Source: Amoebophrya sp. A120
Lineage: Eukaryota > Protista > Dinoflagellata
NCBI GenBank assembly: GCA_905178155.1
Contig: CAJINV010000009.1
Location: 310,001-374,000 of the forward strand
Direction of reading: 5' to 3'
DNA: 64,000 nt
Made by a program: the position numbers and the translations under genes. Of the stretch, positions 13,601 to 50,500 are shown one piece after another; the stretch's first letter is position 1; each line of letters starts with the position of its first letter. The notes under the pieces were generated by a model. That model was given only the letters and a program-made list of their open reading frames with translations, did no database searches and had not been told where the DNA came from.

Positions 13601-16600
13601 GGGAACGGGATGAAGCAGGCGGATTTGGAGTTTCAACGGGCGGTTTTCTTGAATCTCATCGACCTGGATGTTGTGAGTGCGGACGAAGATCATGACCAGG
13701 GTACTAAAAATGAAGACTCAAAAAATGCCGAGCACAGGATTTTGTTCCCGGAACACCAGGCAATTGTCTCTGCTGCTGCTGCTGCTGGCGGCGGTTCTGT
13801 TGTGGAAGAGAGTACAACTCCTTCGACTGGTCCCTCCGGGGAATTACTACTTGCAAGCAGAAGTCTTGCAGTTGCTGCATCGTCCAGCGCGACTGCCACC
13901 ACCACGGCGCCGCCCGACCGTTGCTGCTGCTGCCCAGGTTTTACTCCGATGACGGGAGGGCCGAGTGGTGGTGGTGGTGCCGCGCACCGTCGAACTGCGG
14001 TGAATACCGATGATGAAGATCCTGCAGCAGATGAAAGATCTCCTGGCGAGCTGATCCACTTCGGAACCGAGGGGAAGTACAGGGTTGAAACGCGGTTTCT
14101 CGCCGCTACGGCGGATGCGAAAACCAATCGCTGCGAGTGCGGGTCCGAACTGAAACGGCACATCGCCTGGACCGCGCCCTTGCACGAGTACCGAGTCTAC
14201 TTGAATGATACGTTCAACGACCCGATGATGCCGCACATGGGGTACTACCAGCCCAAACACAAGTTTCCCTACATGCAATCCGCGATTTTGGACACCCTGA
14301 TTTACCAAACGCGGTACCAGCTCATGCTGTTTCCGCCCGCGGTATCAAATGTAAAAATGTCTGGGTCTGGAAGAGTCCGAGACTTGTCATGCTGTTTTTG
14401 CATGACACAGAATGTCTGTCATGGAAGCCCTAGCATCACAGATTTTTAGAGGCCTTCCTGATGCCTATTCCGCATGACAAATGCCCTCCCCGCGTAGCAC
14501 AAACTGGGCTCCTCTTGCTGGTCATGCAATACAGACTTTTTTAGAGTCCAAAGTTAGCATCACAAGTTCCAACCTTCCAGACCCAGACATATTTGCAATG
14601 CATACGCGGCCTACAGCAGCAAGATTTCCGACCCGATGGCCTACAACCTGGACATGGACTTTATGGCGTTCTCAAATGTTACATTCTCAACTGTTACATA
14701 AATTTGCAATGCAAGAACGGCAAAAGTGAAAGGAGGAAGACTGCGCCTTTTGCATTACAGATCTGGCACAGATTTAGATGCTGTTGTGTTTAGCCCTTCG
14801 GATATTTGTCATGCGAAGCAGCTTAATCGTGGCGATCTTGGTGGCAAATTTCAGTTGAGAATGTAACAATTGAGAACGCCATGGACTTCACGCACGGCGG
14901 GTTCGGCCAGGACGCCCCGAAGGTCGTCGATTTGTACGACTGCGTGGACCGCGACCACCACGAAAGCTCCAGCTACGACGAACGGATCGATACGGAGGGC
15001 TACGACTTCCACGGGGAGAAGGTGTACGCGCGGTTTGCCAACACCGGCGGAACGCATTCCGGCCGCAACATCGAGGCCGACTGGTGGCGGATCGGGTGGG
15101 TGGATTTGCAGACGCACAAGGTAACGGTGTCCACCATGGTGTACACCCAGATGGCGGAGATCTTCACGAGTGTCGCCGTGGAATTTGAAATAGACGAAGC
15201 GGGGAACGTGATTGGGCTGACGCGGTTGATGTCCTACGTCGACTTGGACGACTACGGGACCAAGGGGTGGTTCATCTTCAGCAACGTCATGGTGATTGTT
15301 TTCGTCTCCATGGGCGTGGTGCACAGCGTGTATCTGATCACGTGCGGCACAAAGATGACGGTGTCGCTTTGGTACGAGCTGGCCAGTCGGGCGTTCATGT
15401 TGTTCTTCAACCTGTGGCTGCTCATCGGATTTCTGGGTATGTAAGAAATCAGAGATTTTTGTGTGGCTCTTCAAAGGTTCTTAGTACTTGATACTTTCAC
15501 CATTTTGCTGCACTTTGATCTGCTTGTAGAAAAACTAACATTAGGACAGCGATGCAAAATATGCAAAGTTGTCCTTGTTGGCCCGAAAAAAGCAAAATAA
15601 AAATTTGAAAAATCAGGTCTGAAGCCGATGAAGGAGGAATACAACGATTTGATGACGACTTTTTTCACCCTCCACGACTTTTCCTACAAGGGTTTGATTG
15701 GTTCGATCCAGCACTTTTTGGTCGTGAAGGACCACGTGTACGAGGAAAACGACTTGATTTTTCTGTATCGCAAAGTTGCGTTTGCGGTCACGTTGGTCTC
15801 TTTCCTGCAGATGATCCAGTACCTCAACGTCCACCCCCGCGTGGCGACCTTGACGTCCACCATTTTGAAGTCCATCGACGAGATGGCGCATTTTTTCATC
15901 GTGTTCGCGATCCTGTTATAGCGGCGGCAAAAGCTTATTTTTGCGAAAATTAAAAAAAATATTGGGTGGCTTTATCGTGGGCCTCGCAGCCCAGCCGAAT
16001 CATCACGCTTCTGGACTCAGGACGGCGTAAGACCCACGCCAGCGCAGCGCTTACCAAGTTTGCCCTGCCGTGCTGCCGCAAAGTCAAACACATCACACCA
16101 CCGCAGAACCCCTTTCAGAAGGCGCGAGAGGTCGCGTCAGCTTCAACGCTCGCGCACGCCAGGGCGGGCATCGTGGGCAGGGAGCCGGGTCCGTCGTTGA
16201 CCCCTAGACGGGCCAATCCTGCCAGGTCTGCGCCGCTCCAAATTTGGGCGGGGCAGGCGGCGGCCCGGCAGGCGCGGCCGAATCTGGCCAAGCCAAAGGC
16301 ACGGCGTGATATGGAATGGGCGAGCGCCTTGCGCCTCACCAGATGCCCCGGGGCCATGCTCCTGCGCCCCGGTTAGGCGGCATCATCGGGCGCAATGCCC
16401 ATCCCTGATTGCCCGGCGAGGTGCCGCAAAACCCCTCGGCTGCCGCCCACGACCCCTGCTCGGGCGACCGCAATTCCCCAATTGCGCGACGCCCACCCTG
16501 TTCAAGCAGCCCCATTTCTGCAAAGCGGGCAAAAGCGTGGCTCCATCCCAGCCAAGGCGCCTGCGGTTTGGTTACACCTTCCAAGCCACCCCCTAGCGCG

Positions 16601-19600
16601 CCTCCGCCAATTCGCGGGATTCCTTGCAAGAACTACCCGGCGGCATTTCGGATATCAATTTCGCGGAAAACAACCGCCCGGCGACACTGCCAGCACGCTT
16701 GGAGGCTAGAGCACAAGCGCCGCAGCCCTTGGCAGCACGGCGGGGCAACCGGGCCCCCCTTTTTGCAGGTGGGGAACTGATCAGGCGGCCCGCGCAAGGG
16801 GGGCCCGACCGCGGCGCGCCGTGCTCTAGCGGCCCCAACACGGGCGGACGGCAACCCGAAAAGCCCTCTCCGCTGACCGCCGTGCCTTGAGCCGATTTCC
16901 TGAAAAACAAACGGCGGAAAGCATTGGGCCTGGCGCCGCCGCCCCACTGTTTTCCCGGCCCGAGCCGAAGGCCACAGCGCTTGCGCAGTAGGTAAGGCGC
17001 AGAGGCGCGCGGCGCCCGGGCCCCTTTTAGAGGATGCCGAAAACACCAGGACCGCCACGGCCGCCTTACCCTTTCGGCGCGCCGCGCTGCCAACATAGCG
17101 AAGCCGGCCAGCCGGCAATGCAGGGCGGGCGCGGATCAATTTCCCGGGGAAAACACTGCCGGCATGCTGTGGGCCGTGCTTTTTGTCGCTGCTTTTCTTC
17201 GGCCAGACCGCGGGGCGCATGGCGCCAAAACCAGAAGCCAGCGCGCGTGGGGCGCCCGGATCGCCGGCGCTCTTGTTTGCCGGGGCAATCGGGGCCACGC
17301 TTCCGGGCAGCTGCGGAACCCCGCGGCCGTTGCGGAGTGCACGTGGGGCGCGTGCTGCGTGGCCGCCCTTGCCGCCGCTGCTTTCCCACTCTGGGGTCTC
17401 CTCGGCCCCCCCGGACGGGGGGGCCCGGATAGGGTCCTCAAAAGTGGCCCTAAGCAAGAGCGATCCCGCATGCTATGGACCCACTTTGGGGGGGTGCCTC
17501 TTTAGCCTCTCCCGGAAGGTGTTTCCAGTTGCCCGGCCCGCATTCCCGTTGGGAAGCCTCCCAGCCGAAGCTCCGTCGTAGCGACAGGCTTGCCACTTGG
17601 GTTCGGGCTGTTCGGCGCGCGCCGTTCCACGAAAACCTTGTCCATTTAAGGCGGCCAGCTTCCGGACTGTCGGAAGAGAGGGCCCAACAAGTTCGGCTCA
17701 GGTTGCTCCCCCTCCTATTGCTGCCGGCGCATGCTCGGGTGGGGGAGGGGTTTTCCCCCGTTTGGCGCGACCGGGCCCCCGGCGCTTCCCTGGGTTTCCG
17801 CGGGCGGGCGGGCTAGGGACACGACTCGGAGATAACACGCAGAAGGGGTGGGCGGCCGTTTCTTCGCGAGCAGGCGCCGCCTTCCTTGGCCGTGGGTGCG
17901 CATCTGCGTCGCCCTATCCTTGGCCCTCTTTGAAGGTGCCCGACTGGGCGCAGTCGGTCGGACTGGTCGAGCGGGTAGTGTTCGGCCACGTGCTTTGTCC
18001 CGATCCGAGTACGGCGCGGCAAAAAGGAAAGGGACAGGGCTGGCGGCGCTTTTGGCGGTCAATGAGGCCCTCCTGGCCTGGCTTACTCTGCGAACGCCCA
18101 CTGCCCTTGCGAGGCATAACGCACGCAGGAGAGGCAGCCCGCTTGGTGCCGTTTCATGCCCCCCAAAAAAAGGCAAAGGCCCCGCGCTTTGGGGGTGCGC
18201 CGGGCGGCGGGCATTCGGTCGGGCCAATCGCTCGCCACGCCCCCTCCAGGTGCCGGGGCGGGAGTGAAACCTGCGCAGCGACCAAGAGTTTCCGCCCCTC
18301 CAGCCCGGAGTTTGGTTGCGGTACTCCGGGAGCAGGCGCTCTGCCTCCCAGGTTTCAAAACGGGCGCGGCTTTTGGCCGCCGCGCGTTTCCGGGGCTTTT
18401 TTCATGTTCTCCAGCAAGTGCGGTGACCCTTTCGCGGCCCCTCTGAAACCCCGGCGCGCCAGGGATCGCCCCTCCAAGGGCCAGCCGCCAGAGCCGGTAG
18501 AAAAGCTGTAAGAGCCGCCGGGCGACGCTTCAGAAAGGCCTGCGGGAGGCGGAAAGCGCAAAACCCTAGCAGCCCGGGGCGCGTTCTTATTTTCTCGTGG
18601 CCATTGCTCGAGGCCTTTTCACAAGCCTGGCAAGGGAATGTTTCTCCTCGCCACATCTCCCCCGCCCATCCTGCTGCCCGGCGCGCTGCCAAAACACATA
18701 TGCGAGGCCACTGGCAAGCATGCCACCAGGGCCCGCGTGCCGGCGGCTCCACTACTATCGGCGCAGGTCTCGGCGGGGCATCGAGCCAGAGCCCGGGCCC
18801 GCGAGTGCAGTGCACTTCGTAAGGCCCAACCCCCCGGCCCTATCATTTCTGTCAACCAGGCGCCTGACCATCTTTTTCTCCGATCAATTCCAACCGCGGC
18901 TGCACAGGCGTCGCAGCCGAGCATGCTCGACACACGTTGCGATGGTAGTGCTCTTCGCGGCCAGTATCTATGACACCCAATGTTTTTTTTAATTTTCCAA
19001 AAAATAAGCTTTTGCCGCCACTATACCTGTTATGGATTGCAAAAATGTCTGGGTCTGGAAACTTGTAATGCTGCGTTGGGAATAATGAATGCTCTGTAAT
19101 GCATAGCCAAGCATGAGAAATATCTGTGCTGCTTTGTGTTGCATTTTTCGCATGACAGCCTGGGTTTTTGCATGACAGGCAAAAGTGCTTCTTCTTGGAC
19201 ACGCATCACAAACTTTTTGGTCATGCCAGGCAAGCACGACAAATCTCGCAATCTTCCAGACCCAGACACTTTTGCAATTCATACCTGTTCGTGGTGATGG
19301 CGTTCATCGGGCATTGGCAGTTCGCATCGATGCTGCCCGCGGACTTTGGGACCTTCGGCCGCGCCGTGGAGTGGCAGTTTCGGATGATCATCGGCGACTT
19401 CCCCTTCGACGGGTGGATCGAGTTGGACACCACGCAGCAGTTGATGTACTGGCTGTACCTGATATCCACAGTAAATTTCCCGTACACGACGTACAAATGC
19501 AGTCTCTGCACGACAAAACTTGCCTTCAATCCTAGTCTAGCATGACGAATTGGACACTGCAAGTTAGCGAAATTTGTCATGCATTTTGTACATGTACGAG

Positions 19601-20688
19601 AAATTTACATTGCATACCTGATTCTGTTCGCGCTCATCATGTTCCTGACCATGATGAACTTCTTCCTTGCGATCATCGTGGACGCTTTTGTGGAGGTGAA
19701 GCAGGACATCCACGACCAGAAGACGGAAAACTCCTTTCCCTTCGACTGCATGGACATGTTCAAGGACTGCTCCAAGTACTACACCACCCGGGGGTACCCG
19801 AACAGCCGCGAGGTGCTCGACGCCCTGAGCGAGGCGGACGAGCAGGACGAGATCGCGCGGCGCATTTACACGAAGGAGAAGAAAAAACACGATCCGGATT
19901 TTCACTACCCGGTCACCGCAAAGGACTTGGCTTCGTACAACCTGCGATCCATCGAAACGGAGGCGCAAGCGGTGGAGTTTCTAGTGCGGTACGGAATAAA
20001 AACGCCGGAAATCGTGTTTAGAACGAAGGTAGTATTTGAGTGGGAGCTTTTTTTTTTCAGGTTGTGAGATCGATAGATACTTATTGCTTCTTTGCACTTG
20101 TTTCACTTTTCAAGTATGGGAATTTGCAGCGGGACGTAGAACTAGAACCATTTTATCTTGCTCGCTATACAATTACAAAATATCTAGCGTGCGTTTTGAA
20201 CAAAACAAAATCAGGGTCTCATGGTATTCAAGAAGCTCTCTGAAATGGCGAAGCGCGACGCAGGAACGCTCTCCCCAGAGGCCCTTCAGGCCATCTACGA
20301 CGCCACGGACCAACGCGGGCAGCGCAAGCAGACCGGTGGCCGCCAGGTTTCTTCCAACTGGCGAAAAGTCATGGACCGTGTGGGCGGTGCGGACTTGCGA
20401 AGCTTGGCAGCAGCTGTATGAGATTGCACAACTCCCCCTCCCCCTCAATTGTATGGTATGAGCAGCAATTCAGACACCAGCTCAAATGGAGCCTGCGCAT
20501 GACAAACCTGCACACGGATTGTAGTTCTGTTTGTGGCTCCAAGATTTGTCATGCTAACTGTGCTTACAGACAAGATGTGGATTTGGGTTTTTGCATCACA
20601 AATGAGGGGGAGGGGGAGTTGTGCACTGTCATAAGCTGCAGCGGCCGGGGGCTCCTCCTCGCGAGCATATGAATACCAGGACGCCTAG
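10648..20688 (+). CDS. Polycystin-2/TRPP-like cation channel with a very large extracellular loop, interrupted by canonical introns and six TAT..ATA elements
   Basis: S1 is LNFFIYFLFFLVAIYIFY. Removing the elements gives a contiguous S4-S6 region: LQMIQYLNVHPRVATLTSTILKSIDEMAHFFIVFAIL|FVVMAFIGHWQF...FGTFGRAVEWQFRMIIGDFPFD...WLYL|ILFALIMFLTMMNFFLAIIVDAF. Putative GT-AG introns are 11368-11511, 13112-13181 (or -13142), 15437-15616 and 20029-20214. Stop is TAG at 20686-20688. Confidence 0.82.
14343..14604. mobile_element. Introner E1 (262 bp), 5-bp TSD CGCGG
   Basis: Ends are TATCAAATGTAAAAATGTCTGGGTCTGGAAG and CTTCCAGACCCAGACATATTTGCAATGCATA (TIR). CGCGG occurs at 14338-14342 and 14605-14609. 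Removal restores FPPA|AYSSK. Confidence 0.92.
14662..14883. mobile_element. Introner E2 (222 bp), 5-bp TSD GACTT
   Basis: TIR TATGGCGTTCTCAAATGTTACATTCTCAACTG / CAGTTGAGAATGTAACAATTGAGAACGCCATG. GACTT occurs at 14657-14661 and 14884-14888. Removal restores LDMDF|THGG. Confidence 0.9.
15917..19025. mobile_element. 3.1-kb TIR DNA transposon (TAT..ATA ends, 5-bp TSD CCTGT) inserted in a coding exon
   Basis: 52-bp TIRs at 15917-15968 and 18974-19025 (48/52 identical by eye). CCTGT occurs at 15912-15916 and 19026-19030. The interior is GC-rich and decayed. Confidence 0.92.
16150..17860 (-). pseudogene. Decayed hAT-superfamily transposase remnant (boundaries approximate)
   Basis: Minus-strand motifs occur in hAT order across frameshifts and a stop: PFCVL/SES (about 17830, DES-like); MDKVFVE...GKPVA/YDGAS (DGAS at 17566-17577); FRERLKRHPPKVGP*HAGSLLLRATFEDPI (CxxH-like region, about 17470); PRALASGFGAMRPAVWP (TRWxS-like, about 17240); SISRRAFGL...ADLAGLARLGVNDGP (ERxFS...LMRIxxNGP dimerisation-like, about 16190-16310). 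Confidence 0.6.
19031..19283. mobile_element. Introner E3 (253 bp), same family as E1 but in inverted orientation, TSD CCTGT
   Basis: TIR TATGGATTGCAAAAATGTCTGGGTCTGGAA / TTCCAGACCCAGACACTTTTGCAATTCATA. CCTGT occurs at 19026-19030 and 19284-19288. Confidence 0.92.
19463..19616. mobile_element. Introner E4 (154 bp), TSD CCTGA
   Basis: TIR TATCCACAGTAAATTTCCCGTACA / TGTACGAGAAATTTACATTGCATA. CCTGA occurs at 19458-19462 and 19617-19621. Removal restores WLYL|ILFAL (channel S6). Confidence 0.9.
20417..20633. mobile_element. Introner E5 (217 bp), TSD AGCTG
   Basis: TIR TATGAGATTGCACAACTCCCCCTCCCCCTCA / TGAGGGGGAGGGGGAGTTGTGCACTGTCATA. AGCTG occurs at 20412-20416 and 20634-20638. Confidence 0.92.
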
Positions 20689-21727
20689 GGCGGCGAGATG
20701 ACATCTGGCATTGCCCGCATGAGAAAACCAAAGAAGCAAAGTACCGTGATTGACGTGAACAGCGGTGCTGGAGGTGGCGACGAGTTACAGCGTTCGGCCA
20801 CTTTTGTTGAGTTGTAAGACTAAGAGTTGAATTTTTCATCCTAAGTAAATAGAAGTAAGAACACGTTCAGTTTTACTCGTCTTCAGTGCATAGAGAAGGT
20901 TTATTTCCTGCTTTTTTCGAAGGTCTCAGCTGCCTTGTAGGATGTTTGCACACAACAAGAAGGGCTCGCACGATTGGTATTCGTTGCCAGCTTTAATGCA
21001 GGCGATAGAGTAAAGATCTAACAAACAGTTACGTACGTCAATGTTATCAAGTCGTGCATAGGTCCTCGACTTCATCTTTTCTTAGCCTGTACATAACTAG
21101 GTGAAAGTTCTTCAAGTATCTATGCCTATCTACATCTCTTTATCTTTACGCGTATATGCATCCCATACTTGATCAATCCTACTAACTTTCGAGCTTTTTT
21201 CCCTTTCAATTTTGCATGCGGTTTTTGGTCTAGTGTCATTCCCATTCCTATGGCGTAAAAATACAGAGGCCGCTAGTTTCAGAAATTGTTTTTGTGTTAC
21301 ATCAACGGAACCTGCACAGATCTACGCGTACGAAAGGAATTTTCCAGCAAGCGTGTCATTACATGCAATTCTGTCGTTGAAGCAAGCAGTTGTTTTGCAA
21401 AGACAGACCCTGGTGTTAGTTCTGAATTTGAATACGTATGTCGGAAGATGTAAATAACAGATGATCCACATCCATAGTCTTCTTTCGCTCTCGGTAGTAG
21501 TTGGATCAAAGTCAAAAGAATGGTTGTAATCTCATCCGCTTGAAGGCCATGCATGTTCGTACCAGGACCCCACTTACCTTCATCCAGCCACCAAGTACGG
21601 CTCTTCCTAACTGACAAACTTCTTGCCTCGTGGCCGATTCCGATCCTGACTTAATGACCACTTTGACAAGCTAGTGATGTATGGGTTGCCGCAGCCGCTA
21701 TCCGCAAAATAGTTTTCATTCCTCATC

Positions 21728-24307
21728 ATGCCGCCTGGTCGTGGTCTTCGTTGGAGGAAGAAAGACGACACCTCCAGCAGCGCACAAACGGGCAAAAACG
21801 ACGAGACAAATTTCACACAAAGAAATGCGGCGCAGCCTTCCTCAGCTGGAAGTCGTTCCTCTTTTCAGCCCCCCGACAGAGCTGAGTCCGCCGCGATTGG
21901 GGTATCGATTCCTACGGAAGGAGGTGGAGAAAAGAATGTCGCTATTGTTTGGCACAAGTGGAGCGATTTGCGACTGCAGGACCACGAGCCGGCGTGGCAT
22001 GCACATCGGGCGTCACCTAGAATGGGTAATATGGAAGACAGAAACAATAAAGCATCAACTTTCGATGCTGTTTTACATGTCCACCTGATTGAGCACGACT
22101 TGCTCTATGGGCGGAGCGAGCAAGCAAATCTTCCCCGCTGTTCTCCGCTTCGGGCTCGTTTCTGGCTGGAAAGCGTTTTGGATCTGGACGCGAGCCTGCG
22201 GAAGGCAAAAGTTGTAGACGGGGGTGCGAACACGTGTCCGCAATTTCTCCATGTCGAAGTTGTCGGTGGTGACGAGGATGATGGTGATGCAGAAGTTAGT
22301 GGATCGCTTCTGGTCACTGCAAGCGCTGCCGTTCTTTCATCGTCCTCCACGGAGCAGCCGCCTCTACGCAAGCAGATGACACCAATGGCAAGAGAAGACG
22401 AGGAGGATATAATTGGGGTGAAGAATGCAGACCGCCAGATTTTACCGGGGCAGAGAAGATGGCGCAAAGAGAAATCGGAAGCCGTGGCAAATTGGTTCGG
22501 TGAGTTTTTTCTCAAGCAGAGAAAGAACGTGGCCCCGCCGTCCACCGCTTTCCACCTAGTGACCCATCAAGAATTGTGTACAGAAGAGGTGAAAACTGAG
22601 CAGGCCGTGCGCGCTTCCTTGAACGCCCTTAATAACGCAGGCACTGTTGCAGCAGCTCCAGCAGGTACGATTCGGATCCCTTTCACGTGGCGAACTTACT
22701 GGGGCGGTCAGACAGTGCACCACATCCAGGACCTCGGTTTCAACCCGGAAACCGAGTCTGACATGATGCCCCTGTTCAAGGGCGAGTTTAACAAAATGGC
22801 CAAGAAACGGCCGATACGGGAAGTGCTGCTGTTTTCGAAAGACTCGGAGTTCCGCCCATCGCTCAAACAGTTTTACGTCGACAGGAGCGCTTTCGAAGAC
22901 AGAGTGCATAGGATTTTCAAAAAGGCCCTCGCACCAGATCGACAGGTATATTTGCAGAGGCTTTTACGTGGACGAGCAGGAGGGAACAACAAAGCAGAAA
23001 CTGACGGCGCGACCGCCCCTACTTCGGTGATCGGCCCAGCTGCTCCCTACACCCTGCAGAATTCCTTCGAGCACCGTTGGCGCGGCGGCGAAAGTATGGC
23101 CCAGCAGTATTTGGAAGACTTTTTCAAAACCGGTGACAATTTGTGGAATTACTGCGGTGCGACGGAATCGTTCGCCCACGGGGCTGACCACAATCCCATC
23201 TTCTCTGGCACGCGCTTCAGTCCCTGGCTGGCGTTCGGCAATGTGTCCGCCCGGATGATTGTGAAGAAAGCGTACGACTGCGAGAAAAGATTCGGCGGCT
23301 TTTACCGGCCGACGAAAGGAGGTGGAAAGAAAGGCAAAGGAAATAGTACAGGCAAAGGGTCTGCTGGAAAAACATCAGGGTCAACTGCGCAGCGGCTGCA
23401 CACGGAGCTCCTCTTTCGCGACTTTCTCCGGTTTTCCGCGTACTTTTTGTGGAAAAAGAAACTTTTCTGCCTCGAGGGGCCGATGGGGTTGGAGAAGGCC
23501 GACATTTTCTGGCGGGCGAGAGCAAAACCCGAGACGCAGGAACTGTTTCGCAAGTGGCAAGTAGGCGAAACTGGCTTTCCCTTCGTGGATGCGGGGATGC
23601 GCGAATTACTCAAAACCGGGTACCTGTCGCACCTGCACCGGCAGTGCTGCGCTTCGTTTTTGGTGCGCGATCTGGAGATCGACTGGCGATTCGGGGCGGA
23701 GCACTTCGAGGCCACTTTAATCGATTACACGCCGGACGCGAACTGGGGGAACTGGGCGTACCGAATCTTGCCCCGTCCGTGTCTCGCTGCGACGCGTAGA
23801 AAATTCAAGGAGCAAAGTAAAAAGAGGGAGGCAAGAAGTAGAAGCAGTTCAAGTTCTGCAGATGATCAGAATTTCGTGCCACATTTGAGCACCTTGGAGT
23901 GTGTCGTTTGGCCCATTGTGCACGATCCCGAACTGGAGCATACACTGTTTTGGGTGCCGGAATTGAAAAGGATTCTTGAGAAGTTCGGGCCCGACTGCGC
24001 CAGAGAGCCCTGGACGATTGGAGCGAAAGGTGGAGAGACAATTGTGCAGATCCGGCCGTATCGAGACTCGCCGCTCTGGTTCTGTGCAGCGAACCGAAGC
24101 AATTGGGATTACGAATACTTCTGGCTGCGGAACGCTGTTGGGACCGTTGATTACAGTGGTAAGCAAGGCGGGAACAAAAAGCTAAATAGCAGCACGAGTA
24201 GGAACGATGAAGAAATCTATCACCTCCCCCTGATTCCGCCTGTCAGCGTGACCGTCGATCTGAGAAAATTACCAGTGCAAAGGTTTGTTTGGGAAAGGAC
24301 AGTCTGA
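21728..24307 (+). CDS. Cryptochrome/photolyase family protein, CRY-DASH-like (859 aa, intronless)
   Basis: Motifs VWHKWSDLRLQDH, GGES, TRFSPWLAFGNVSAR, ELLFRDF and WQVGETGFPFVDAGMRELLKTGYLS...RQ..ASFLVRDLEIDWRFGAEHFEATLIDY...NWGNW. Confidence 0.9.
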   Translation: MPPGRGLRWRKKDDTSSSAQTGKNDETNFTQRNAAQPSSAGSRSSFQPPDRAESAAIGVSIPTEGGGEKNVAIVWHKWSDLRLQDHEPAWHAHRASPRMGNMEDRNNKASTFDAVLHVHLIEHDLLYGRSEQANLPRCSPLRARFWLESVLDLDASLRKAKVVDGGANTCPQFLHVEVVGGDEDDGDAEVSGSLLVTASAAVLSSSSTEQPPLRKQMTPMAREDEEDIIGVKNADRQILPGQRRWRKEKSEAVANWFGEFFLKQRKNVAPPSTAFHLVTHQELCTEEVKTEQAVRASLNALNNAGTVAAAPAGTIRIPFTWRTYWGGQTVHHIQDLGFNPETESDMMPLFKGEFNKMAKKRPIREVLLFSKDSEFRPSLKQFYVDRSAFEDRVHRIFKKALAPDRQVYLQRLLRGRAGGNNKAETDGATAPTSVIGPAAPYTLQNSFEHRWRGGESMAQQYLEDFFKTGDNLWNYCGATESFAHGADHNPIFSGTRFSPWLAFGNVSARMIVKKAYDCEKRFGGFYRPTKGGGKKGKGNSTGKGSAGKTSGSTAQRLHTELLFRDFLRFSAYFLWKKKLFCLEGPMGLEKADIFWRARAKPETQELFRKWQVGETGFPFVDAGMRELLKTGYLSHLHRQCCASFLVRDLEIDWRFGAEHFEATLIDYTPDANWGNWAYRILPRPCLAATRRKFKEQSKKREARSRSSSSSADDQNFVPHLSTLECVVWPIVHDPELEHTLFWVPELKRILEKFGPDCAREPWTIGAKGGETIVQIRPYRDSPLWFCAANRSNWDYEYFWLRNAVGTVDYSGKQGGNKKLNSSTSRNDEEIYHLPLIPPVSVTVDLRKLPVQRFVWERTV

Positions 24308-27497: not shown

Positions 27498-28188
27498 CCT
27501 GATCATGAAACATCCGCTCTGTTAAAGATAAAACGAAGCAAATCCACATGCTCACTTGGCCGCATCCATCGTAAGGATCGTTTCGTTTGTTGCGACGCAA
27601 GAACGACAACGGATATCGCGGACCTGCCATGATACCGAGCAGCTGCAACGCTTGTCCGTGTGTCGTTGAGCAGAACGCGGTGCTACTACTTCGCGTTCGT
27701 GTTCGTTATAGAGATCCAGAGCCTCCTCGCTTCGTTATTGTCATGTGCATCTTGTGTGTCGTTTCTATCTCATGATTGTCTTCATCGTTATCCTCCCAGT
27801 CAAGTGTAAGCTAAAATCGATGATCAGCCTCCTCGTTCGATCGTCTGTGTCGTAGAGTCTCTGTCGTCACCTAACATGCGAAACAAAATTTTATTTTTTG
27901 CATTTGTCGATCTCGATATCCATATCGTGTTCGTCGCCTGTTCGCCGTCACATCGTAAACCCGCTGAACCACTGTCGCTGAAAGGCTATCGTTTGTCGAT
28001 TTGAAGAAGTCGTCTACGACCATGTTGTCATTGTAGTATCTTCATTTTGATTTCTCCGAGCGATTGCAGCCTAAGTATTGCAGACTCCTCTAGTACTCTT
28101 CTTCCTTATCCTTTCAACTTGGTCCTAAGCTGCCTCCTTTTGGAAAGCTCAGGTGATTTGCGTGGGAACAGTGCGAACGACTAAAACA

Positions 28189-30654: not shown

Positions 30655-31331
30655 GTAGAAGGTGGTGAGCAGACACTTGTCGCGCTCCTGGATACGACTC
30701 GTGTTTGGAACATGTATTCCGTAACTCTTGCTCAAGCTCCTCAAGGTCAAGAGTACGTACTACTGAAATCCCGACTACTTCGAACGCCGTGCAAAATTTT
30801 TGTGCCGGTGTGCCTGGCCTCGGCTTGTTTGTAACAATTGTACGTGTACTTTGAATTTGAATGATTTGTAGCAAGGAACGAAATAAATTTATGTATTTTT
30901 CACGAAGAAACGATTTTGTACTTGTAGCCAAAGGGGAACGAACATTGTTCCGGATTAAAAAAGGAGAGTTTGGCTGCTGTTCCGTCGGTAGCTCTGTGTG
31001 AGCGTAAGTACCGAACATGTAGCACTTATTCCAAATCCAGTTCCAAAACTAAATCTGCTTCGTCGTCGTTGGGTCCAGCTTGCTTCAGAGTGCTGGTTCG
31101 GTGTACTCTTTCTCCCGCTCCTCAGGCTAAATCAAAAACGAATCGGGTCCTGGGTTGTGTGAAGAATATCAATGAACAGTAGGCCGAAGATCCGGGGGGC
31201 GAGAACGATGTGCATCAAAAAGGGGTTTCAAAGAGAGGTGATCACATCAAAACCAAAAGCGTTAACCTTCTGAAGAAATAAACATTCGATCTTCCGAGAT
31301 TAGTATACGCTAACGAAAAAGATACCCGATC

Positions 31332-34659: not shown

Positions 34660-34709
34660 ATCGCAGTGTGGGTCAGACTCAGAATCTAGTTTTGTTGTGA
34701 GGAAAAAAG

Positions 34710-37130: not shown

Positions 37131-37417
37131 AAGTATTTATCTAGAACGTGCGGGCACGGTGTTGCAAAAGTACTTAGTTGCGAAGCGGGAAGATACATCA
37201 TAGAGCTGGAGTTGTGGGAGAGCTGATTTTGTTGCTCATCATCTTGGCTTTGAGTGTGATCGCTTTGTTTCTTGTTGTGCGATTTGTTTGAGGAGCAGGG
37301 TGAGATTGGAATTGTTGGTTAATGAATGCATGGAGCGGGTGGACGAGATTTGTCATTGTCGCCACTGCAGAACTAGGACTAGCTCCGTCTGGTATTGCGC
37401 GCCATCCGAGCAAAGGC

Positions 37418-39997: not shown

Positions 39998-40999
39998 ATG
40001 AATCGAAATGCTCACCGTGACCGGCCAGCAGCCCGGGAGCGTAGCCGTAGCGTGCAGAAGCGACGGCCGTCTGCGGGTGGTCCGCAACAGGACATGTTTA
40101 AGAACGGCGACCGCACACTGCGCATCCGCAATCTGTCCCGCAACGTGGAGGAGCCGCACTTGCGCGAAATTTTCAAAGCCTACGGAACCGTAAAAAGGGC
40201 ACTGATCGGGCGCGACCAGAAATGCAACGTCAATCTCGGGTACGGTCTCGTCGAGATGTATGGAAGCGTCAGGTTTGAAATCGACAAAGTTGAAATGATT
40301 TATCATGCATAAAATGGATGCCAGTTGCAACCCAGGTTGCAAGTGGCGCATGACAAATTTGGTTGGAGCCGAAATCCAGTTTGTCATGCTGCTTCGGCAC
40401 AGAAGATAGCTTTTGTCATGCTACTTTAGCAGCTCTGTCCCAAACCCTAAACAGGCTCACAATCGGCCTCACTTGCCATCCCTGCAACACAGGCACTTCA
40501 TGCTTTGCATTTTATGCATGACAAACCATTTCAACTTTGACGATTTCAATCCTGACACATCCATAAGATGGCAACCTTCAAGGAGGCGGAGCAGGCGGCG
40601 GATTGTTTTCACGGCGGCTGGATCGATGGTAAGGAGGTGGCCGTCACCATTGCAGATCCGGACGCCGGGCGTGCCGGGACCGACAGCGACAAAAATCAGG
40701 TAGCGTCGAAAAAGGACGTCACCAACAAGCCAGGGCGCGCCGCAGGGGCCTCGACAAGAGGTGGGGGCACGACTTCTACGGCGAAAAATACTAAAGCCGC
40801 CGCCAAGCAAGCAGCAGCCCGGGGCAAGAAGGTGCAGCGGAAGCAAGTCGTGGAGTCTTCCTCAAGTAGCGAGTCAGACAGCGGCAACAGTTCCTCGTCC
40901 AGCGGAGAAGCAAATTCCTCCTCCTCAGAAGAGGAGGAGGAAAACTCATCGTCCTCGGAGTCAGAAGAGTCAGTGCGACCCAGAAAGAAAAGGGCTTGA
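39998..40999 (+). CDS. RNPS1/SR45-like RRM protein, interrupted by introner E6
   Basis: Reconstructed RRM: LRIRNLSRNVEEPHLREIFKAYGTVK...LGYGLVEM|ATFKEAEQAADCFHGGWIDGKEVAVTIA, which resembles the RNPS1 RNVTKDHIMEIF...GGQIDGQEI pattern. Ser-rich tail. Confidence 0.8.
40259..40565. mobile_element. Introner E6 (307 bp), TSD AGATG
   Basis: TIR of about 58 bp: TATGGAAGCGTCAGGTTTGAAATCGACAAAGTTGAAATG... / ...CATTTCAACTTTGACGATTTCAATCCTGACACATCCATA. AGATG occurs at 40254-40258 and 40566-40570. Confidence 0.93.
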
Positions 41000-43293: not shown

Positions 43294-44899
43294 AGGAGAA
43301 AAGAGCAGCTCATGCTTCCACGTGTATAAATGAAAACTCATGACTCTTCACGGCGCGCATCCATGGCCGATGATGAAAACACAATACATCAGTGATGTTT
43401 ATTTGCACTGACAATGACATCGAAAACACGAGGTAAACATACACAGCATCGTGTGTGAATTAATACTCCGAGAAGTTTCGAGTAACAGCCACACAGTAAA
43501 GTATTAAGTATGTATTGACGAACTCGAAGTAAAATTGTACTTACTGAATAGTGCTTAGTCGTACATGATGTTGACTAGTAGTCAATCTGGGAGGACACAA
43601 GTGCAGGAGTCCCTCCGGCAAGCATAGTAGAGTGACATCATAAGGGAATTTTATGGCCGAATGCGAATGCTATACTTTTTGTCTTCAAGACTAAGACACC
43701 GACAAAGTGAAAGGCATGGGAAACGACACTAACATCAACATACACGAACGCGACCATGCAAGAATCAGCATAGAATTATCATCCAACAACACGAAGAGCA
43801 GCACAAGAAAACATTTTATTTTATTCGACGAAGGCTGGTGCAGCGAGCAGCAGCTGGACTGGTCTTGTCTATTAAATACAGGAAGGAACGCTGCAACAAG
43901 ATCTTCATGTCGTGTTCGACTGCAACAATAGAATGCGATCGAGACCACATGAGATGGACATTGAGAGACGTCGAATCGTACCATGACTGGGAATTGGAAT
44001 CGAACGAGTCGCCCTCCGAGACCGTGGCTTCTTATCATGGTCTTGCGCGCCAACCTGTACCTGCCATAGATGGCTTCAGAATTGCATTCACATGGTAAGC
44101 GCTGAAGTACTTAAGTTTAGTAGAAGAATATTTTCTCGTCGTCATTTTATTAGCGTGATTGTTGCTTCTCTCGAAGTTTCTCGTTTGTACTCAGAGCTCT
44201 GACGACGTAGCACTGGTGGAGCTGATTCAGTTTGTAGGTCCTCGAAGAATCTATGCTACACAGATCATACAGACAAATCACGCGGCTAGCTTTTGCAACA
44301 CCGCTATTGAAACTGCTGGCGTTCCTGCCGTTTCTTTGCTGAGAAACAGAAATCATGAAGAATCAGAGAAATTTAGAAATCAGAATCACAGACGAGTGAA
44401 GTTTTTTACGCAGAACTGAGTAAGAGCTCGAACATAATTACCCACTCATTCTGTTTGCGTTTCAAAAAGTGATTGTAGCTTTGTCGTACCCAGTGCATTC
44501 CTTCAGCAGCAACCAAGCACCGCTTTTTGTCTCTTCCTTCCCTTCTATCGCGCACCTTTTTTATTGCCAACGCTGATTGTTTAAGAAACGCCAGCACGTG
44601 CCGGCTCAACTTATTTTCAGACAACAAGTATGTGTTATTTTCAGACACCGGAGTGATACTACAGCTATTTGAATTTTTAATACGGCTTCACCACTGCGCC
44701 ACTATTTAATTGATTGTGCTTAGGCACTTGGGACGATTATAGCAGGGTGAAGATATTATCCAAGCAACATGTTGTCGCGCTTATAAAACAGCTAAAGTAG
44801 CAGGCCACGAGGAGGCGGATGAAAAAATAGACGCAAGCGAGCGCTTTACGTTCTATGCAACCCAGATAACGAACGTACGAAAGAGAAATTAAGACCAAA

Positions 44900-46438
44900 A
44901 TGCCGCCGTCTGCGAAATGCCTGAAGCGAATCCAGAAGGACATGATGAATGTCCAGGCTCTCAGCCTAGAGACGAATGGCTGTTGGGTGGATCCGCAGAC
45001 GTTCGACAAGCCAGAGTGGCACGTCTACATCCAAGGTACAACATTTTCTGCTTCATAAAAGAGCCTACGTTGTAAAACTAGAAAGAATTACGCTGGTGGC
45101 ACCATGGAAGTTAATTTGTACTGGTAGGTCGGAAACAGAGTGGTCAACGTTGAACATTCGTTTCTCTTCCTCGCATGAAAGAAGATAAACTCCGTACTAA
45201 AAAAATCCCCAAATCAGGTCCAGTGAAGACGGTATGGGAGAAGGGAGTGTTCAAGCTAAAAATGTCATTCCCCGATAACTACCCTTTCGACCCAATAAAA
45301 ATCAACTTCGACAAGGGCATATACCACCCAAACGTCGGCACCGGGGGAACCATCTGTCTCGACGTATTTGCTTTTTGTTTTGATCGTTTTCCGTTCTATT
45401 TTCATCAATCTTTGCACTGTACGTTGTCATATCATGCAAATGCTTGTTGACGTCCTACAATGAAGAGTACTTGAACAACAAACAGATCATCAAGAAAGAC
45501 GCCTGGTCACCCTCTTACACTCTGCAATCGGTGTTCACCAGCATTCGCTCTCTTCTTTGCGACCCGAATCCCGACTCCCCCATGAATGGCGACTCTGCAC
45601 GAGCATACACTAAGGACAAAAAGGTACTACATTCTCGCTTGCTGACTGTGTTGTTCGATTCAAATTTATTTGCATCTGTTCTGCTCCTGTGCGTATCACC
45701 GTGCAGCATTGTTATGTATGTTGCAGCGTGCGCCTGCAAAAGCAAATACGCTAGTGGCCACTACAGCAGCCAATCGTAAATGTTTCCTTCCCTATCCCCA
45801 TTTCTCAGGCTTACGAGCGCAAAGTCCACGAGACGATCGAGAAGCATGGGAAGTGCCTCCCTACCCACAAGCGGCAGACGCAGCACAGCGAAAAACCGGA
45901 TTCGAAGACGCTGGATCGCCTCAAGCAGCAGGAATGTAGCGGAGCGGGCGGCGCGGCCGCGAGCTCGTCGTCTGCGGCCTCTGCCGCCAACAACAAAACA
46001 ACGACGGCGAACCAGTCTTCGGGCCCCGGTGCAGCGACAACAAAAGGGGCGTCCGCATCGTCCACGTCGTTCTTCTCAGCGCTGAGCGCATCCGCATCTG
46101 GCCTTTTCGGCTCCGCCTTGGGAAGGACAGGCACGAATCCGAATGCCACCACAACAGCAAGTGCGCCGGCTGCGTCGACGATCAACAACAAGCGCACCAC
46201 CTCAAAAGATCAGACAAGCGGGGGCGCGAAGCAGCCCGCAGCAAAAAAAAGAAAAAGGAGCGGAAGTGCGGGTAGCCCCAAGAGAACTTCAAGCAAGCAG
46301 GGTGGTTCAGCGGGAAACAGTAGCGCAGCAGGAGCGTCTTCATCCGCCGCTGCGGTGCCGCCGCCCGCCCCGAATGCGGCGAATCGCGCTCCTCCAGCTG
46401 GGGGCAACGATGTCATCATCTTGTCTGATAGCGATTGA
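44900..46438 (+). CDS. Ubiquitin-conjugating enzyme E2 with long disordered C-terminal tail, 4 exons (44900-45035, 45218-45363, 45486-45623, 45809-46438)
   Basis: KRIQKD...WHVYIQ|GPVKTVWEKGVFKLKMSFPDNYPFDP...IYHPNVGTGGTICLD|IIKKDAWSPSYTLQSVFTSIRSLLCDPNPDSPMN. HPN motif and catalytic Cys are intact; introns are GT-AG. Confidence 0.92.
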
Positions 46439-47526
46439 GGTGCTGGAGCAAAGGACGAAAAACGTAAGTGCTGGAATACGGACTACAACTACTTCGACTC
46501 CTTTTGTTTCCCTTATATATCCACCCATGGCGCCCCCTGCGACTCTTGAAACGTCTCTTTCTACTCCTACGTTTACTTGTCTGCAGTTTGTCGAAGCGAT
46601 CGGGCAAGGTAGTTATAGCAAAATTGAATCTGTACACCACCACAACGTCTGATTTCTCACTCAAGCTTCAAAGCGACAATAGCGAAGCCCCTGTATAAGT
46701 CGAGCGGGATGTTTTCAAGGGTACCCTTGGAGTACGCACCGCAGGGCCCGGCTTCGACGATTTTTGAAATAGAGTTCCACGCACTTTCAGTAGGCTTGAC
46801 TTGTTGCGTTTTTGTGAAAAATATAAATACATCAAAGTTGTCGTCAAGGTCGGGTTTTCTTTCGTAATCGTGTCTTCGAATTTGAAACAGGATTAGAATT
46901 TTTGTCATGTAATATATGAAAAGAGATAGTATGTACCCTTCGCTGTGTTTTTCCTCGTGAATGCCAAATATTGAGTTAAGTTCTGCATTCTCTCGTCATC
47001 TTGAATAAAAACAAAGAAGCTTGCCTTTTCTAGTTTGCTAGTTTGATGTATCTTCCCTTTGCGACGAGATGGACCACCGCGCTCTGCAATCGGACACAAA
47101 AACAAATGAAACGGTAGTGATAAAAGATGAAGATTCCAAAAAGGATTCACCTCGAGTCTGACTTTGCGTTTTGGCTTGAATAGGACGAATCTTCGTTTCT
47201 TTCCGCGTGTTGTCGTCACGAGGGATTCGTCCTTTGCGATCAGGCGCATAGGGGCCAGCTGCAGCACTGCCATGTGAATCGCTTAGAACGCTTCAGAATT
47301 CGTTTTGACATCGATCGTTGAGTAAGAGGCAGCGTCGCCACCACTCCTAGTCCAGTACAGTCCAGTAAGATTTCATGTTTCAAGCATTGGCGGGTTGCAA
47401 AAGAAAAAGAGAAACAACGATCTGTAGATTTACTGCACAAGAATTAAAAGCCACAGCGCCAGGAGCCGTGTCCGTCACGCCGTCCCCAAGAATGAAGTCA
47501 TCAAAATCCTATCAAAAGCAGACGCG

Positions 47527-50500
47527 ATGGACTACTACACAGCTGATGCACAAGAATTTGGGAACAAAACTATAAAAGAAGAAAATATCGTTATTGAAAT
47601 TGATGATATCAGAGAGAAGAAACCGAGGCGCATCTTCCGGGTCCTGCAGTTCCTTTTGGTTACGTATACTAGTATTCGTGTACGACCTAGTTTGCTCGTT
47701 GTCTGCTGCGGCTGCGTCGCATTTTTTGGTGCTTTCTTGCCTGCGGCGTCTGCGGCCGGTGGGGAGGAAGTACGAGAATCCTTCGCGAAGGATGAAGGTC
47801 TTGTCGAGCGCAACCAGGTGGCGGTCGAGGACGAAAACGCGGAAAAATCCTTCGGAGATGAGGCCAACAGCGCCGGTCAGCATTTTCGTCCTCTTGAGAG
47901 AGCAAGCGCTCGTCCGAAAGACGAGAGTGAAAGACGAGCGAGCAAAACGCACCTCCTTACATTCGCCTCGCATGGAGTGTATAGGCAGGTTCAAGACATC
48001 GCGGAAAGAGAGGCAACCGCTGCCGGTTTCGCTTCCCACGTTCGCTGGAAAGCCTCTATGACTTGCTCAACCGTTACAATCTCCAACGTTACAATAAAAT
48101 CTGGAAGTTGTGTTGCAGGATGAGCACGACAGACTCGCACAGCGTTCTACCTTTTGCAATACAAATTTCGCCAGATTGTAGTGGGGTTTGGGTCTCCGGA
48201 ACTTGTCATGCGCAATCCTATGAGAGTTGGCTAGATCATGCACTCTTGCATCACAGATTTCCATATTCTATTGCAACGCTTTAGATTGTAACACCTGAGC
48301 GGGTTATAGCCTCGCAGTTGGCGTTCTGGAATGATCGGGAAAGAGCGGCGCGCCTCTTGTACGTGTACGCCCAGCATGATGTTGAGCCAGATGCAGATCG
48401 TGATCAACTAGACGAGAATAAACATCAGCCAGATGATCGCCACGGAAACCTTCATAATACGACCCAGGAGCAGGAGGATGCCCCTCACAAGAACCGAAAC
48501 ATCGAGCCTGTCACTGTTGGGGCTTTCGCAGAAACAAACAGCCTTGGGAGCCCAGAGGGGACTCCTGCATCCACGACTACGTCCACCTCGGAATTGGAAT
48601 TGCTCAGCGCACCTGGTACTAAGGCTGCGAGTCGTTGGTGGGCCCAGACGAGGGGGCCTCTTTTTCAGAAAATTTTCGAGGCTTTCGGCACAACCTACCC
48701 CTATTTGAATCCAGCCTATTTCGCAAAGGCCGTCACTCTGATTGAGACCCTCTTCGATGTCTCTGAACAGCGGTCACCGACGTCCTGTGCCAGAAGTGAG
48801 GGGAACCAACTGGACTCGTCTACCAAGACGACGGAAAAAGCCAAAGCATTGGCAACCAGCATCCCTAGTGCTACAACCGATGGAGATATGAATGGGCGTA
48901 CTGATGAAGAGACGCAGCCTACAACGCCGGCGACTATTGTTCAGCCGGAAACTACTACACCAGGGCCAGAGTTGAGGACGTCGATTGCAGCTGCGCAAGA
49001 GTGCGAATCGCCGCCGAGGATTGGCTGGGGTGACTACGTTCTCGTGACAGACCCAACGAAGCATTTGGTGGATGAGACTGAGTCTGGAAATCTGGTCGAG
49101 GCTGTGGTCGAGGAAGAGGTATCTGCGACATATCCTCCTAGCAGCAAGACTGTGATTGAGGCGCCATCTAGCAATCCTACAGATACAGGGCAGCATGAAC
49201 CTCCGAGACGAGAAGGAGGCAATCAGGGAGATCTGTTGCTCACAGACTGGCGTCTGTTGAACACCGCCGGGGTCTCGTTTTTGCGCGATTTGAATGCAAC
49301 AGATCTTGAGACGCTGCAAACCCTGGCGGCGCAAAATGAGCGGCTTCCTCTCATTCCCGGGGTGCGGTTGCCGCCCAGTGTACGGTGGGAGTATTCCACG
49401 GAGCGGTTCCGCACACCATGCACCGACTGGCTCCTAAAGAGCCCCCACGTCGCGTACGTCTTTCGCCGTTACCTGGTCTTGCTCCTGCGCCGAGCGTGGC
49501 GTAGCGGCCCGGCACCGCTCTGGCTGGAGCGCTCCAAGATCATGGAAGGCCATCAAGCAAGTGCGGTGGAGAATAGCGGGGAGCTCAGGCAGTTGCCCCG
49601 TGCTGCAGCCGCGCCCCCTGCGAATTCTGAGAAAAGCAACGGCAGCAGTGCTGCTGCATTTTCCACCGAAAGCGAAGACAGCACAGACGCACCGCCCGCG
49701 GCTGGAGATGCATCTTCAACATGGTGGACGTCAACCTCAGAGGCCCCGCGTTCCGACAGTAAACGCGTGCACGGGGACGAACAAGAAGATATGAACAAAC
49801 GCGATGTGTACCGGGTGAAACACTTCCCGGACTCGGCCTACAGTGATTTTCTGTCGTTCGTTGACTTGCCTGCTTTGTGGCACAACGTAACTGGAGGACA
49901 GCGACAAGCTGCCGGATCCGGATCAGCATCGGAGGCTAACGAGATATCACAGCCGAAAAATGAAGACCGGTGGTGCTTTGCTCACACACGACTGGTTTTG
50001 GTTCACAAAGCGCTGCGTTTGTTCTTTTCGGCGCGCCGCGGTCAAAATGTAGGTGAGCCTAAAGAAACTCGGAACCGAGTAGAGCCGCAGTCGCTCCCCC
50101 ACGAAATCACGCCACTGATTTCTCCGATTGACGCTTTCACGACGGGGTGCGTTGAGGTGGAGCTTCTCGTCAAACAAGAAGCTAGGTACATTGGGCCGGC
50201 TATATGCGGCCTTTTTGCAGCAGGATCTGATGCAGCCTGCACGCCGGCCGGACATGTGAATGAACAAGGGAGCGACTCGCAAGAACTCCGGGCGCAACAG
50301 TTTCACGACCGATGCTTCTGGCACTGGCAGACCTATTCCCCCATGCACCAAAACACATGGCTGTTTCTGCGGAAAACGGTAGGTAATTTCCACTTTCTCC
50401 GGCTGTGGTTGCGGCTGCTGCACGACACGCGGCTTCTATCCAGTTTTCCCTTTGTGGACCAGAGTCCTCTGGGCCACCTGATTCGGGCTCTGAACCTCCG

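What the first reader, a model, noticed from the sequence alone, without database searches (positions are those of the whole stretch)
14338..48313. A system of TIR/5-bp-TSD introners removed without GT-AG signals
Seen: eight insertions (seven short at 154-307 bp, one 3.1 kb) lie in coding exons of three genes. They start TAT and end ATA (E2 ends ATG) and have exact 5-bp duplications (CGCGG, GACTT, CCTGT twice, CCTGA, AGCTG, AGATG, GCCTC). Deleting element plus one TSD copy restores the frame, including conserved channel S5/S6 and RRM sequence. No register across any TSD gives GT..AG. Seven different TIR sequences share the same terminal trinucleotide and TSD length. Inference: one machinery recognises the stem and termini and excises seamlessly, either by non-canonical RNA splicing or by DNA-level excision.
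Basis: partly seen in the sequence, partly recalled or inferred. Interest (0 to 1): 0.9.

Follow-up and report, generated by a model that had tools for sequence, protein, structure and literature searches.

The report
Known Amoebophrya hairpin transposon introns
These are real transposon-like inserts in genes of the parasitic dinoflagellate Amoebophrya A120 that are missing from RNA-type sequence despite lacking normal splice signals; they were described in 2021, and are likely cut out by an altered splicing machine that would measure from the insert's hairpin.

Summary
All eight elements, their TAT..ATA ends and exact 5-bp duplications are confirmed (8 found, 0 in each of 30 controls); two more were found (E9, E10). 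Three window proteins match Amoebophrya sp. A120 records at 100%, and those records already lack nine of the ten elements. An RNA-type contig lacks E1-E6, each with one duplication copy; E10 is skipped in two runs of one sample; DNA-like contigs keep the elements. So removal is at RNA level and DNA excision is unlikely. Farhat et al. 2021 describe these introners (TAT start, 3-5 nt direct repeats, 29,850 copies). Details I did not find in print: the duplication is 5 bp (89 of 113 copies exact, none at 4 or 6-9); both orientations occur about equally in predicted sense; a TGTCATGC motif is shared across families; a 3.1-kb member is removed; and two mismatched duplications confine the 5' cut to 0-1 nt before TAT, if one register holds. 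The catalyst is untested: altered spliceosome about 55%, non-spliceosomal about 35%.

The parts
13106..20688 (+). Host gene 1: polycystin/TRP-like cation channel, 989 aa in my spliced model; holds E1-E6 and two GT-AG introns (15437-15616, 20029-20214)
   Evidence: Pfam Polycystin_dom, PKD_channel, Ion_trans on single exons, each below the curated cut-off; model identical to A120 record P0001 over its 948 aa, which ends before E6; RNA-type contig
14343..14604 (.). E1, 262 bp, TSD CGCGG, same family as E4
   Evidence: absent from X3 record 9
14662..14883 (.). E2, 222 bp, TSD GACTT, ends ATG; junction ambiguity extends to 9 nt
   Evidence: absent from X3 record 9
15917..19025 (.). E3, 3109 bp, 65% GC, 52-nt TIR, TSD CCTGT shared with E4; no recognisable protein
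   Evidence: absent from X3 record 9; variant copies in X1 and X3; 23 ORFs without a meaningful Pfam hit; longest ORF hits one unrelated repeat protein only
19031..19283 (.). E4, 253 bp, TSD CCTGT, 5 nt downstream of E3
   Evidence: absent from X3 record 9
19463..19616 (.). E5, 154 bp, TSD CCTGA
   Evidence: fold z -3.2; absent from X3 record 9
20417..20633 (.). E6, 217 bp, TSD AGCTG, near the stop codon
   Evidence: X3 record 9 joins 20411 to 20634, 222 nt = 217+5; not covered by the annotated protein
39998..40999 (+). Host gene 2: RRM protein, 229 aa, holds E7
   Evidence: RRM_1 profile positions 1-46 before E7; model identical to A120 record P0004; no RNA contig bridges it
40259..40565 (.). 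E7, 307 bp, TSD AGATG
   Evidence: removal supported by annotation only
47527..51889 (+). Host gene 3: 1162-aa protein of no known family, holds E8, E10, E9
   Evidence: model identical to A120 record P0002; A25 orthologue P0003 aligns across the E10 and E9 sites
48057..48308 (.). E8, 252 bp, TSD GCCTC
   Evidence: removal supported by annotation only
50571..50710 (.).
   Evidence: joint 50568 to 50714, 145 nt skipped, in X3 and X4 at depth 4.7 and 2.9; fold z -0.04
51102..51568 (.).
   Evidence: removal of element+5 nt matches P0002; no RNA bridge
51267..51539 (.). 273-bp palindromic insert nested in E9, flanked by CTA on both sides; a different element type

Best explanation
These are the introner elements of Amoebophrya sp. 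A120: inserts with terminal inverted repeats and a 5-bp duplication that are present in DNA-like contigs and absent, with one duplication copy, from RNA-type contigs, and they are likely non-autonomous DNA transposons that a U1-less, altered spliceosome would remove by measuring from the base of the hairpin. Shown: structure, 5-bp duplication, many copies, removal of E1-E6 and E10. Inferred: an integrase-like DDE transposase encoded elsewhere makes a 5-bp staggered cut at arbitrary sites. In the pre-mRNA the TIRs pair in either orientation. The 5' cut falls 0-1 nt before TAT and the 3' cut 5-4 nt after ATA, so the upstream duplication copy stays in the exon. With the -1 register the intron starts N-TAT, like the window's canonical donors GTA(T/C/G) with a free first base. 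Odds: known element class with RNA-level removal about 0.92; given that, spliceosomal catalysis about 0.6.
For: Identity: P0001, P0002, P0004 are 100% identical and named Amoebophrya sp. A120; my models equal them. Removal: X3 record 9 (6306 nt, 0 differences in its listed pieces) fits exactly a transcript lacking E1-E6 plus one TSD each and two GT-AG introns; E1+E2 and E3+E4+E5 are checked as sums (48 and 172 nt between listed pieces), E6 alone. DNA: X1 contigs 12000-14367, 14853-15960, 19577-20444 and 20607-22000 run into the elements, and two of them keep the GT-AG introns. Mobility: 113 E1/E4-family copies with both ends from 133 loci of another assembly; 89 exact 5-bp TSD, 0 at 4 or 6-9 bp, arbitrary sequence. 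No polarity: of 74 family copies with a predicted sense strand, 30 have one end first, 27 the other, 17 unclear; GT..AG possible in 8 of 98 sense versus 4 of 98 antisense. Register: E10 allows -2..0; E9 allows -1..+1 (annotation GLGNAVK, A25 QGNLVK). Stems: 8 of 9 short elements fold at z -3.6 or lower. Paper: TAT start, 3-5 nt repeats, near-complete spliceosome, U1 not detected (PMC7789003).
Against: All removal evidence comes from cDNA or annotation built on it; X3 and X4 are only guessed to be RNA and are one sample. E7, E8 and E9 have no RNA bridge. The register rests on two junctions, one at depth under 5 and one from annotation, and assumes one fixed register. A codon test on 27 TSD mismatches was uninformative (15 of 27 favoured the upstream copy). 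The NT.. pattern in the paper's Table S4 is largely reproduced by a consensus-matching slide, so it is not independent support. E10 is skipped although its fold is no better than shuffles, and E3 lacks the internal motif. No transposase was found in E3, and the paper found none in A120. No branch point or 3' signal was identified, which sits awkwardly with a spliceosome.
Confidence: 0.8

Rival explanations
1. RNA-level removal by a non-spliceosomal endonuclease plus ligase that reads the hairpin base, as proposed for euglenid nonconventional introns, releasing circles or linear RNA.
For: No conserved end dinucleotide in any register; both orientations used; same consensus at both ends; U1 not detected; euglenid introns with TIRs and TSD-like repeats leave as circles (review PMC11282704).
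Against: 83 of 89 spliceosomal proteins and U2, U4, U5, U6 were found in A120; N-TAT resembles the five RNA-validated canonical donors; a tunicate spliceosome adapted to non-canonical ends (PMC13326754 abstract). The retained spliceosome is also needed for the 35% canonical introns, so this is weak.
Confidence: 0.33
2. Programmed DNA excision (like ciliate internal eliminated sequences) creates element-free gene copies that are then transcribed.
For: Transposon-like ends; seamless loss. E3 begins with a sequence fitting the Paramecium IES end consensus (recalled, no call).
Against: X1 contigs pass from unique flank into the element at every junction they reach, and none of the 15 listed joints is an empty site (99 more not shown; contigs drop rare variants). 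The contig lacking the elements also lacks GT-AG introns.
Confidence: 0.03
3. The apparent splicing is a reverse-transcriptase template switch across a hairpin flanked by direct repeats.
For: Strong stems with direct repeats; RT can make such joints (PMC2923612 abstract); all evidence here is cDNA-based.
Against: Retaining any element truncates the ORF, inside the channel or RRM domain for several; E10 is skipped with a weak stem and only 2 nt of repeat at the joint; the A25 orthologue aligns across the E9 and E10 sites; a 3.1-kb skip in the dominant contig.
Confidence: 0.04

Closest known systems
Amoebophrya sp. A120 introner elements (Farhat et al. 2021, PMC7789003; 58 families in Gozashti et al. 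2025, PMC12130899)
   Same: Same genome, TAT-starting inverted repeats, direct repeats at the exon borders (5 bp in the Fig. S19 legend), non-canonical borders, many families; nine of ten elements are already absent from the public protein records.
   Different: Not a different system. The 2021 paper gives 3-5 nt repeats and variable splice sites, and analysed introns of 40-1000 bp; here the repeat is 5 bp, the cut may be fixed, and a 3.1-kb member is removed. The 2025 dataset does list families of about 0.8-1.2 kb.
Euglenid nonconventional introns (review PMC11282704)
   Same: TIR stem joining the ends, TSD-like repeats, no GT-AG, likely MITE origin, unknown catalyst.
   Different: Euglenid introns have a pyrimidine|purine junction and CAG/CTG near the ends; these have TAT/ATA and arbitrary junctions. 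Circular products are untested here.
IS3EU/GingerRoot and IS481EU DNA transposons (PMC10045372)
   Same: TA..TA or TNT..AYA termini, short TIRs; related integrase-type elements make 4-6 bp TSDs.
   Different: IS3EU/GingerRoot TSDs are usually 6 bp and IS481EU about 4, 15 or 25 bp; here 5 bp. No transposase found.
Fritillaria borealis non-canonical introns
   Same: Transposon-derived, TIR and TSD, removed by an adapted spliceosome (review; abstract).
   Different: Fritillaria has dominant AG-AC/AG-AT ends and keeps U1; A120 has no dominant ends and U1 was not detected.

Membership tests
Amoebophrya A120 introner elements | Lies in the A120 genome | tested here: met
   Three of three window proteins searched match A120 records at 100%
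Amoebophrya A120 introner elements | Terminal inverted repeat forming a hairpin | tested here: met
   TIRs in all ten; fold z -3.6 or lower in 8 of 9 short elements, E10 weak
Amoebophrya A120 introner elements | 3-5 nt direct repeat at the borders | tested here: met
   5 bp exact in 8 of 10, 4/5 in E10, 2/5 in E9
Amoebophrya A120 introner elements | IR starts TAT, seven variable bases, then three or more A | tested here: met
   TAT start in 10 of 10; exact TAT-N7-AAA at the 5' end of E1, E4, E5, E9, E10; shifted or partial in the others, absent in E7
Amoebophrya A120 introner elements | Removed from transcripts at non-canonical borders | tested here: met
   E1-E6 and E10 by RNA-type contigs; E7-E9 by annotation only
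Amoebophrya A120 introner elements | Repeated in the genome | tested here: met
   Summed contig depth up to 281,355 at E1 against about 30 in flanks (not a copy number); relatives of 8 of 10 elements among the loci, none of E3 or E6
U2 or U12 spliceosomal intron (canonical) | GT-AG, GC-AG or AT-AC in some equivalent register | tested here: not met
   0 of 10
U2 or U12 spliceosomal intron (canonical) | 2'-5' lariat intermediate | not testable with these tools
   Needs lariat sequencing
IS3EU/GingerRoot | TA..TA termini | tested here: met
   9 of 10 in the window; 106 of 113 end ATA in the loci
IS3EU/GingerRoot | 6-bp TSD | tested here: not met
   0 of 113 at 6 bp, 89 of 113 at 5 bp
IS3EU/GingerRoot | Cognate DDE transposase | tested here: inconclusive
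   None in E3; no whole genome was held to look elsewhere
Euglenid nonconventional introns | CAG/CTG near the ends and Y|R junctions | tested here: not met
   Ends are TAT(G/C) and junction bases are arbitrary
Euglenid nonconventional introns | Full-length circular excision product | not testable with these tools
   No raw RNA reads of this strain were served
Programmed DNA elimination (IES-like) | Element-free alleles in genomic DNA | tested here: inconclusive
   None among listed X1 pieces or joints, but contigs drop rare variants and the table was cut

The most novel reading that the evidence does not exclude
A120 has a sequence-blind, ruler-type RNA splicing activity, possibly not the spliceosome, that recognises the base of a TAT/ATA-capped hairpin in either orientation, cuts 0-1 nt before and 4-5 nt after it over distances from 140 nt to 3.1 kb, and may be recruited by the shared TGTCATGC motif. 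Mismatched duplications would map its cut sites genome-wide from existing RNA-seq.
Probability: 0.3. Interest if true: 0.7.

Novelty: already known. Interest (0 to 1): 0.25.

Why it matters
The system is striking but published: about 30,000 such elements in A120. What remains open is how they are removed. This window offers a cheap handle. Elements whose two duplication copies differ reveal which letters stay in the mRNA, and the two here point to a fixed, asymmetric cut. The published picture of variable splice sites may partly reflect how aligners slide within the 5-bp repeat. If the fixed register holds genome-wide, annotation of tens of thousands of introns could be corrected and the spliceosome-versus-novel-enzyme question narrowed.

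Tried and rejected
No whole genome was held and the loci's records could not be searched further, so no genome-wide scan or transposase hunt was possible. No listed holder is on record as RNA. Raw RNA runs X10 and X11 were no test: 89 reads touching only the E1 TIR, and 0 reads. E7, E8 and E9 were not bridged by contigs. E3 as an autonomous element: 23 ORFs gave only one hit at E 0.097; the 309-aa ORF hit one tandem-repeat protein; rejected for lack of evidence. E1 and E4 in opposite orientation: alignment scores 149 versus 153, undecided. Codon test of which TSD copy is exonic: 15 of 27, uninformative. Table S4 as support for the -1 register: rejected as independent evidence. Mismatches at TIR positions 4, 5 and 7 as a required loop: strong in the E1/E4 family but not in the pooled other families, so read as inherited left/right end difference. 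No Rfam match. No TIR matches in viral or prokaryote collections. No other tandem pair like E3/E4 by one regex in the 133 loci. Earlier scan findings: none. Candidate 27707-27924 has no clear TSD and a weak fold; not counted.
Full report
Observation. With the rule TAT..ATA/ATG, exact 5-bp repeat, at least 19 of 25 TIR matches and 100-3500 bp, the window gives 8 and each of 30 Markov control sequences gives 0 (thresholds chosen after seeing the elements). No equivalent register gives GT..AG, GC..AG or AT..AC for any element. Two further elements lie in the third gene: E10 (50571-50710, AAAAC/AACAC) and E9 (51102-51568, GGAAA/GATGA, with a 273-bp palindrome nested in it).

Host genes and organism. 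Removing each element plus 5 nt gives a 989-aa channel, a 229-aa RRM protein and a 1162-aa protein; keeping any one element truncates them. Single exons hit polycystin and ion-transport profiles below cut-off and the RRM profile above it. Three of three protein searches returned a 100% identical record named Amoebophrya sp. A120. My models equal these records residue for residue: 948 of 948 (the record stops before E6), 1162 of 1162, and 229 of 229. So nine of ten elements are already treated as introns in the public annotation.

RNA versus DNA. In run X3 (guessed RNA), record 9 (6306 nt, no differences in its listed pieces) maps in pieces whose coordinates fit exactly a transcript lacking E1-E6 with one duplication each and two GT-AG introns. 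The two small exons are not listed as pieces, so E1+E2 and E3+E4+E5 are verified as sums; E6 is verified alone. In X3 and X4 (one sample) a joint skips 145 nt at E10, at depth under 5. The same runs splice three GT-AG introns of a neighbouring gene and show little intergenic cover, as RNA should. E7, E8 and E9 are not bridged. In X1, contigs keep the GT-AG introns and run from unique flank into the elements; none of 15 listed joints is an empty site, 99 were not shown, and X1 may be the window's own source. DNA excision is therefore unlikely but not excluded at low frequency.

Family-level data. A TIR pattern found 133 loci; the 80 listed are all JACKZZ01 contigs. Of these, 113 distinct E1/E4-family elements had both ends (partner end chosen without using the duplication): 89 exact 5-bp, 15 with one mismatch, 5 with two, 4 with more; none exact at 4 or 6-9 bp. 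A general scan called 43 elements of other families: 29 exact and 9 with one mismatch; 3 of the 43 look like inner mis-calls. Relatives of eight window elements occur there, none of E3 or E6. Of 160 calls, 133 passed duplication and flank filters and 98 had a confident sense strand from a codon model; that model ranked the right strand first for 7 of 8 window elements. In predicted sense the duplication has no base preference, the two ends share one consensus, and the E1/E4 family lies 30 one way, 27 the other, 17 unclear. A GT..AG register exists for 8 of 98 in sense and 4 of 98 in antisense. The element therefore carries no evident donor-acceptor polarity.

Internal motif. TGTCATGC occurs 15 times in the window, 14 inside the nine short elements (2,274 bp, 3.6% of the window), in seven of them and on both strands; it is absent from E3. 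It is in 109 of 117 E1/E4-family and 26 of 43 other elements of the loci; 112 further hits lie outside called elements there, probably in truncated ones, which I did not check. Its strand symmetry (96 versus 91) fits a DNA-binding site or shared descent as well as an RNA signal. A search for Amoebophrya plus this motif found no paper, but motifs shown only in figures would be missed.

Cut register. Exact duplications hide the cut. At E10 the RNA joint keeps the upstream letter at position 3, allowing starts 2, 1 or 0 nt before TAT. At E9 the annotated protein reads GLGNAVK and the A25 orthologue QGNLVK, which requires the upstream letter at position 4 and allows -1, 0 or +1. If one register applies, it is -1 or 0. 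At -1 the intron starts N-TAT, resembling the five RNA-validated donors in the window, GTA(T/C/G). The paper's Table S4 lists nine top A120 sites all beginning NT, but a consensus-matching slide on 74 elements gives a similar list with about 70% T at position 2, so I do not count it. A codon test on 27 mismatches was uninformative.

E3. The 3.1-kb element is removed together with E4, with which it shares a duplication (three CCTGT copies in a row around two elements). Variant copies exist in X1 and X3. It encodes nothing recognisable. Whether E3 and E4 leave as one piece is unknown.

Mechanism. Insertion: inferred non-autonomous TIR transposons moved by an integrase-like DDE enzyme. The closest termini are IS3EU/GingerRoot (TA..TA, 6-bp TSD) and IS481EU (PMC10045372, passages); the 6-bp test fails, so I do not file them there. 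Gozashti et al. report an A120 TIR family with Copia/Gypsy-like ORFs, a candidate mobiliser I could not test. Removal: RNA-level, guided by the TIR stem. I favour an altered spliceosome (about 0.55 overall) over a separate endonuclease-ligase (0.33), DNA excision (0.03) and RT artefact (0.04). This ranking is inference; no call tests the catalyst.

Literature seen. PMC7789003: abstract, passages, sections 10, 11, 12, 16, 25, and parts 2-3 of 5 of the supplement text; Figs 3 and S19-S25 were not visible and may already show the 5-bp length, register or motif. PMC12130899: passages and 21 of 58 A120 rows of Dataset S2; files 13-14 not searched. PMC11282704: section 6 and passages. PMC12005148, PMC11453091, PMC9860276, PMC10045372: passages. 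PMC13326754 and PMC2923612: abstracts. Roy et al. 2023: not seen. Searches for later work on the A120 mechanism listed none; subscription journals are mostly missing from the library.

Verdict. Real, well supported and already known. The residual value is the testable fixed-register hypothesis and the shared motif. Interest 0.25.

Noticed in passing
window 51267-51539: 273-bp near-perfect palindrome nested in E9, flanked by CTA on both sides; a second MITE-like type (a 3-bp duplication recalls PIF/Harbinger, from memory).
   Followed up: partly
window 15912-19288: E3 and E4 share one duplication (CCTGT three times), so one inserted exactly at the other's target site; no second case found by one regex in the 133 loci.
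   Followed up: partly
window 14653-14661 and 14880-14888: E2's unusual ATG end makes a 9-nt direct repeat with the upstream exon.
   Followed up: no
window 10543-13142: Two long same-frame ORFs separated by one TGA (10543-11481, 11482-13119) precede the channel ORF, and the RNA-type contig runs without a break from 12000 into the channel. By eye, a 31-nt GT..AG intron at 13112-13142 would fuse the second ORF to the channel, but the contig does not skip it.
   Followed up: no
window 27707-27924: Degenerate TAT..ATA stretch between genes with a TTGTCAT motif, no clear duplication and a weak fold; possibly a decayed element.
   Followed up: partly
L001-L133 (JACKZZ01 contigs): An assembly filed among metagenome contigs is dense in the same introner families; best copy-to-copy identity median 85%, maximum 95%. 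The E1/E4 family has distinct left and right ends at TIR positions 4, 5 and 7.
   Followed up: partly
L021 (second element) and L070: Two elements have GAAAG/GAAGG duplications, where the difference creates a GT..AG pair at the -1 register; may be drift toward canonical sites or chance.
   Followed up: partly
window 3264-64000: Every gene I examined lies on the + strand; Pfam hits include a photolyase/cryptochrome (21713-24307), DUF3472 (31314-32672) and a GTPase (53223-54107); a ubiquitin-conjugating-like gene at 44899-46438 was read by eye.
   Followed up: no
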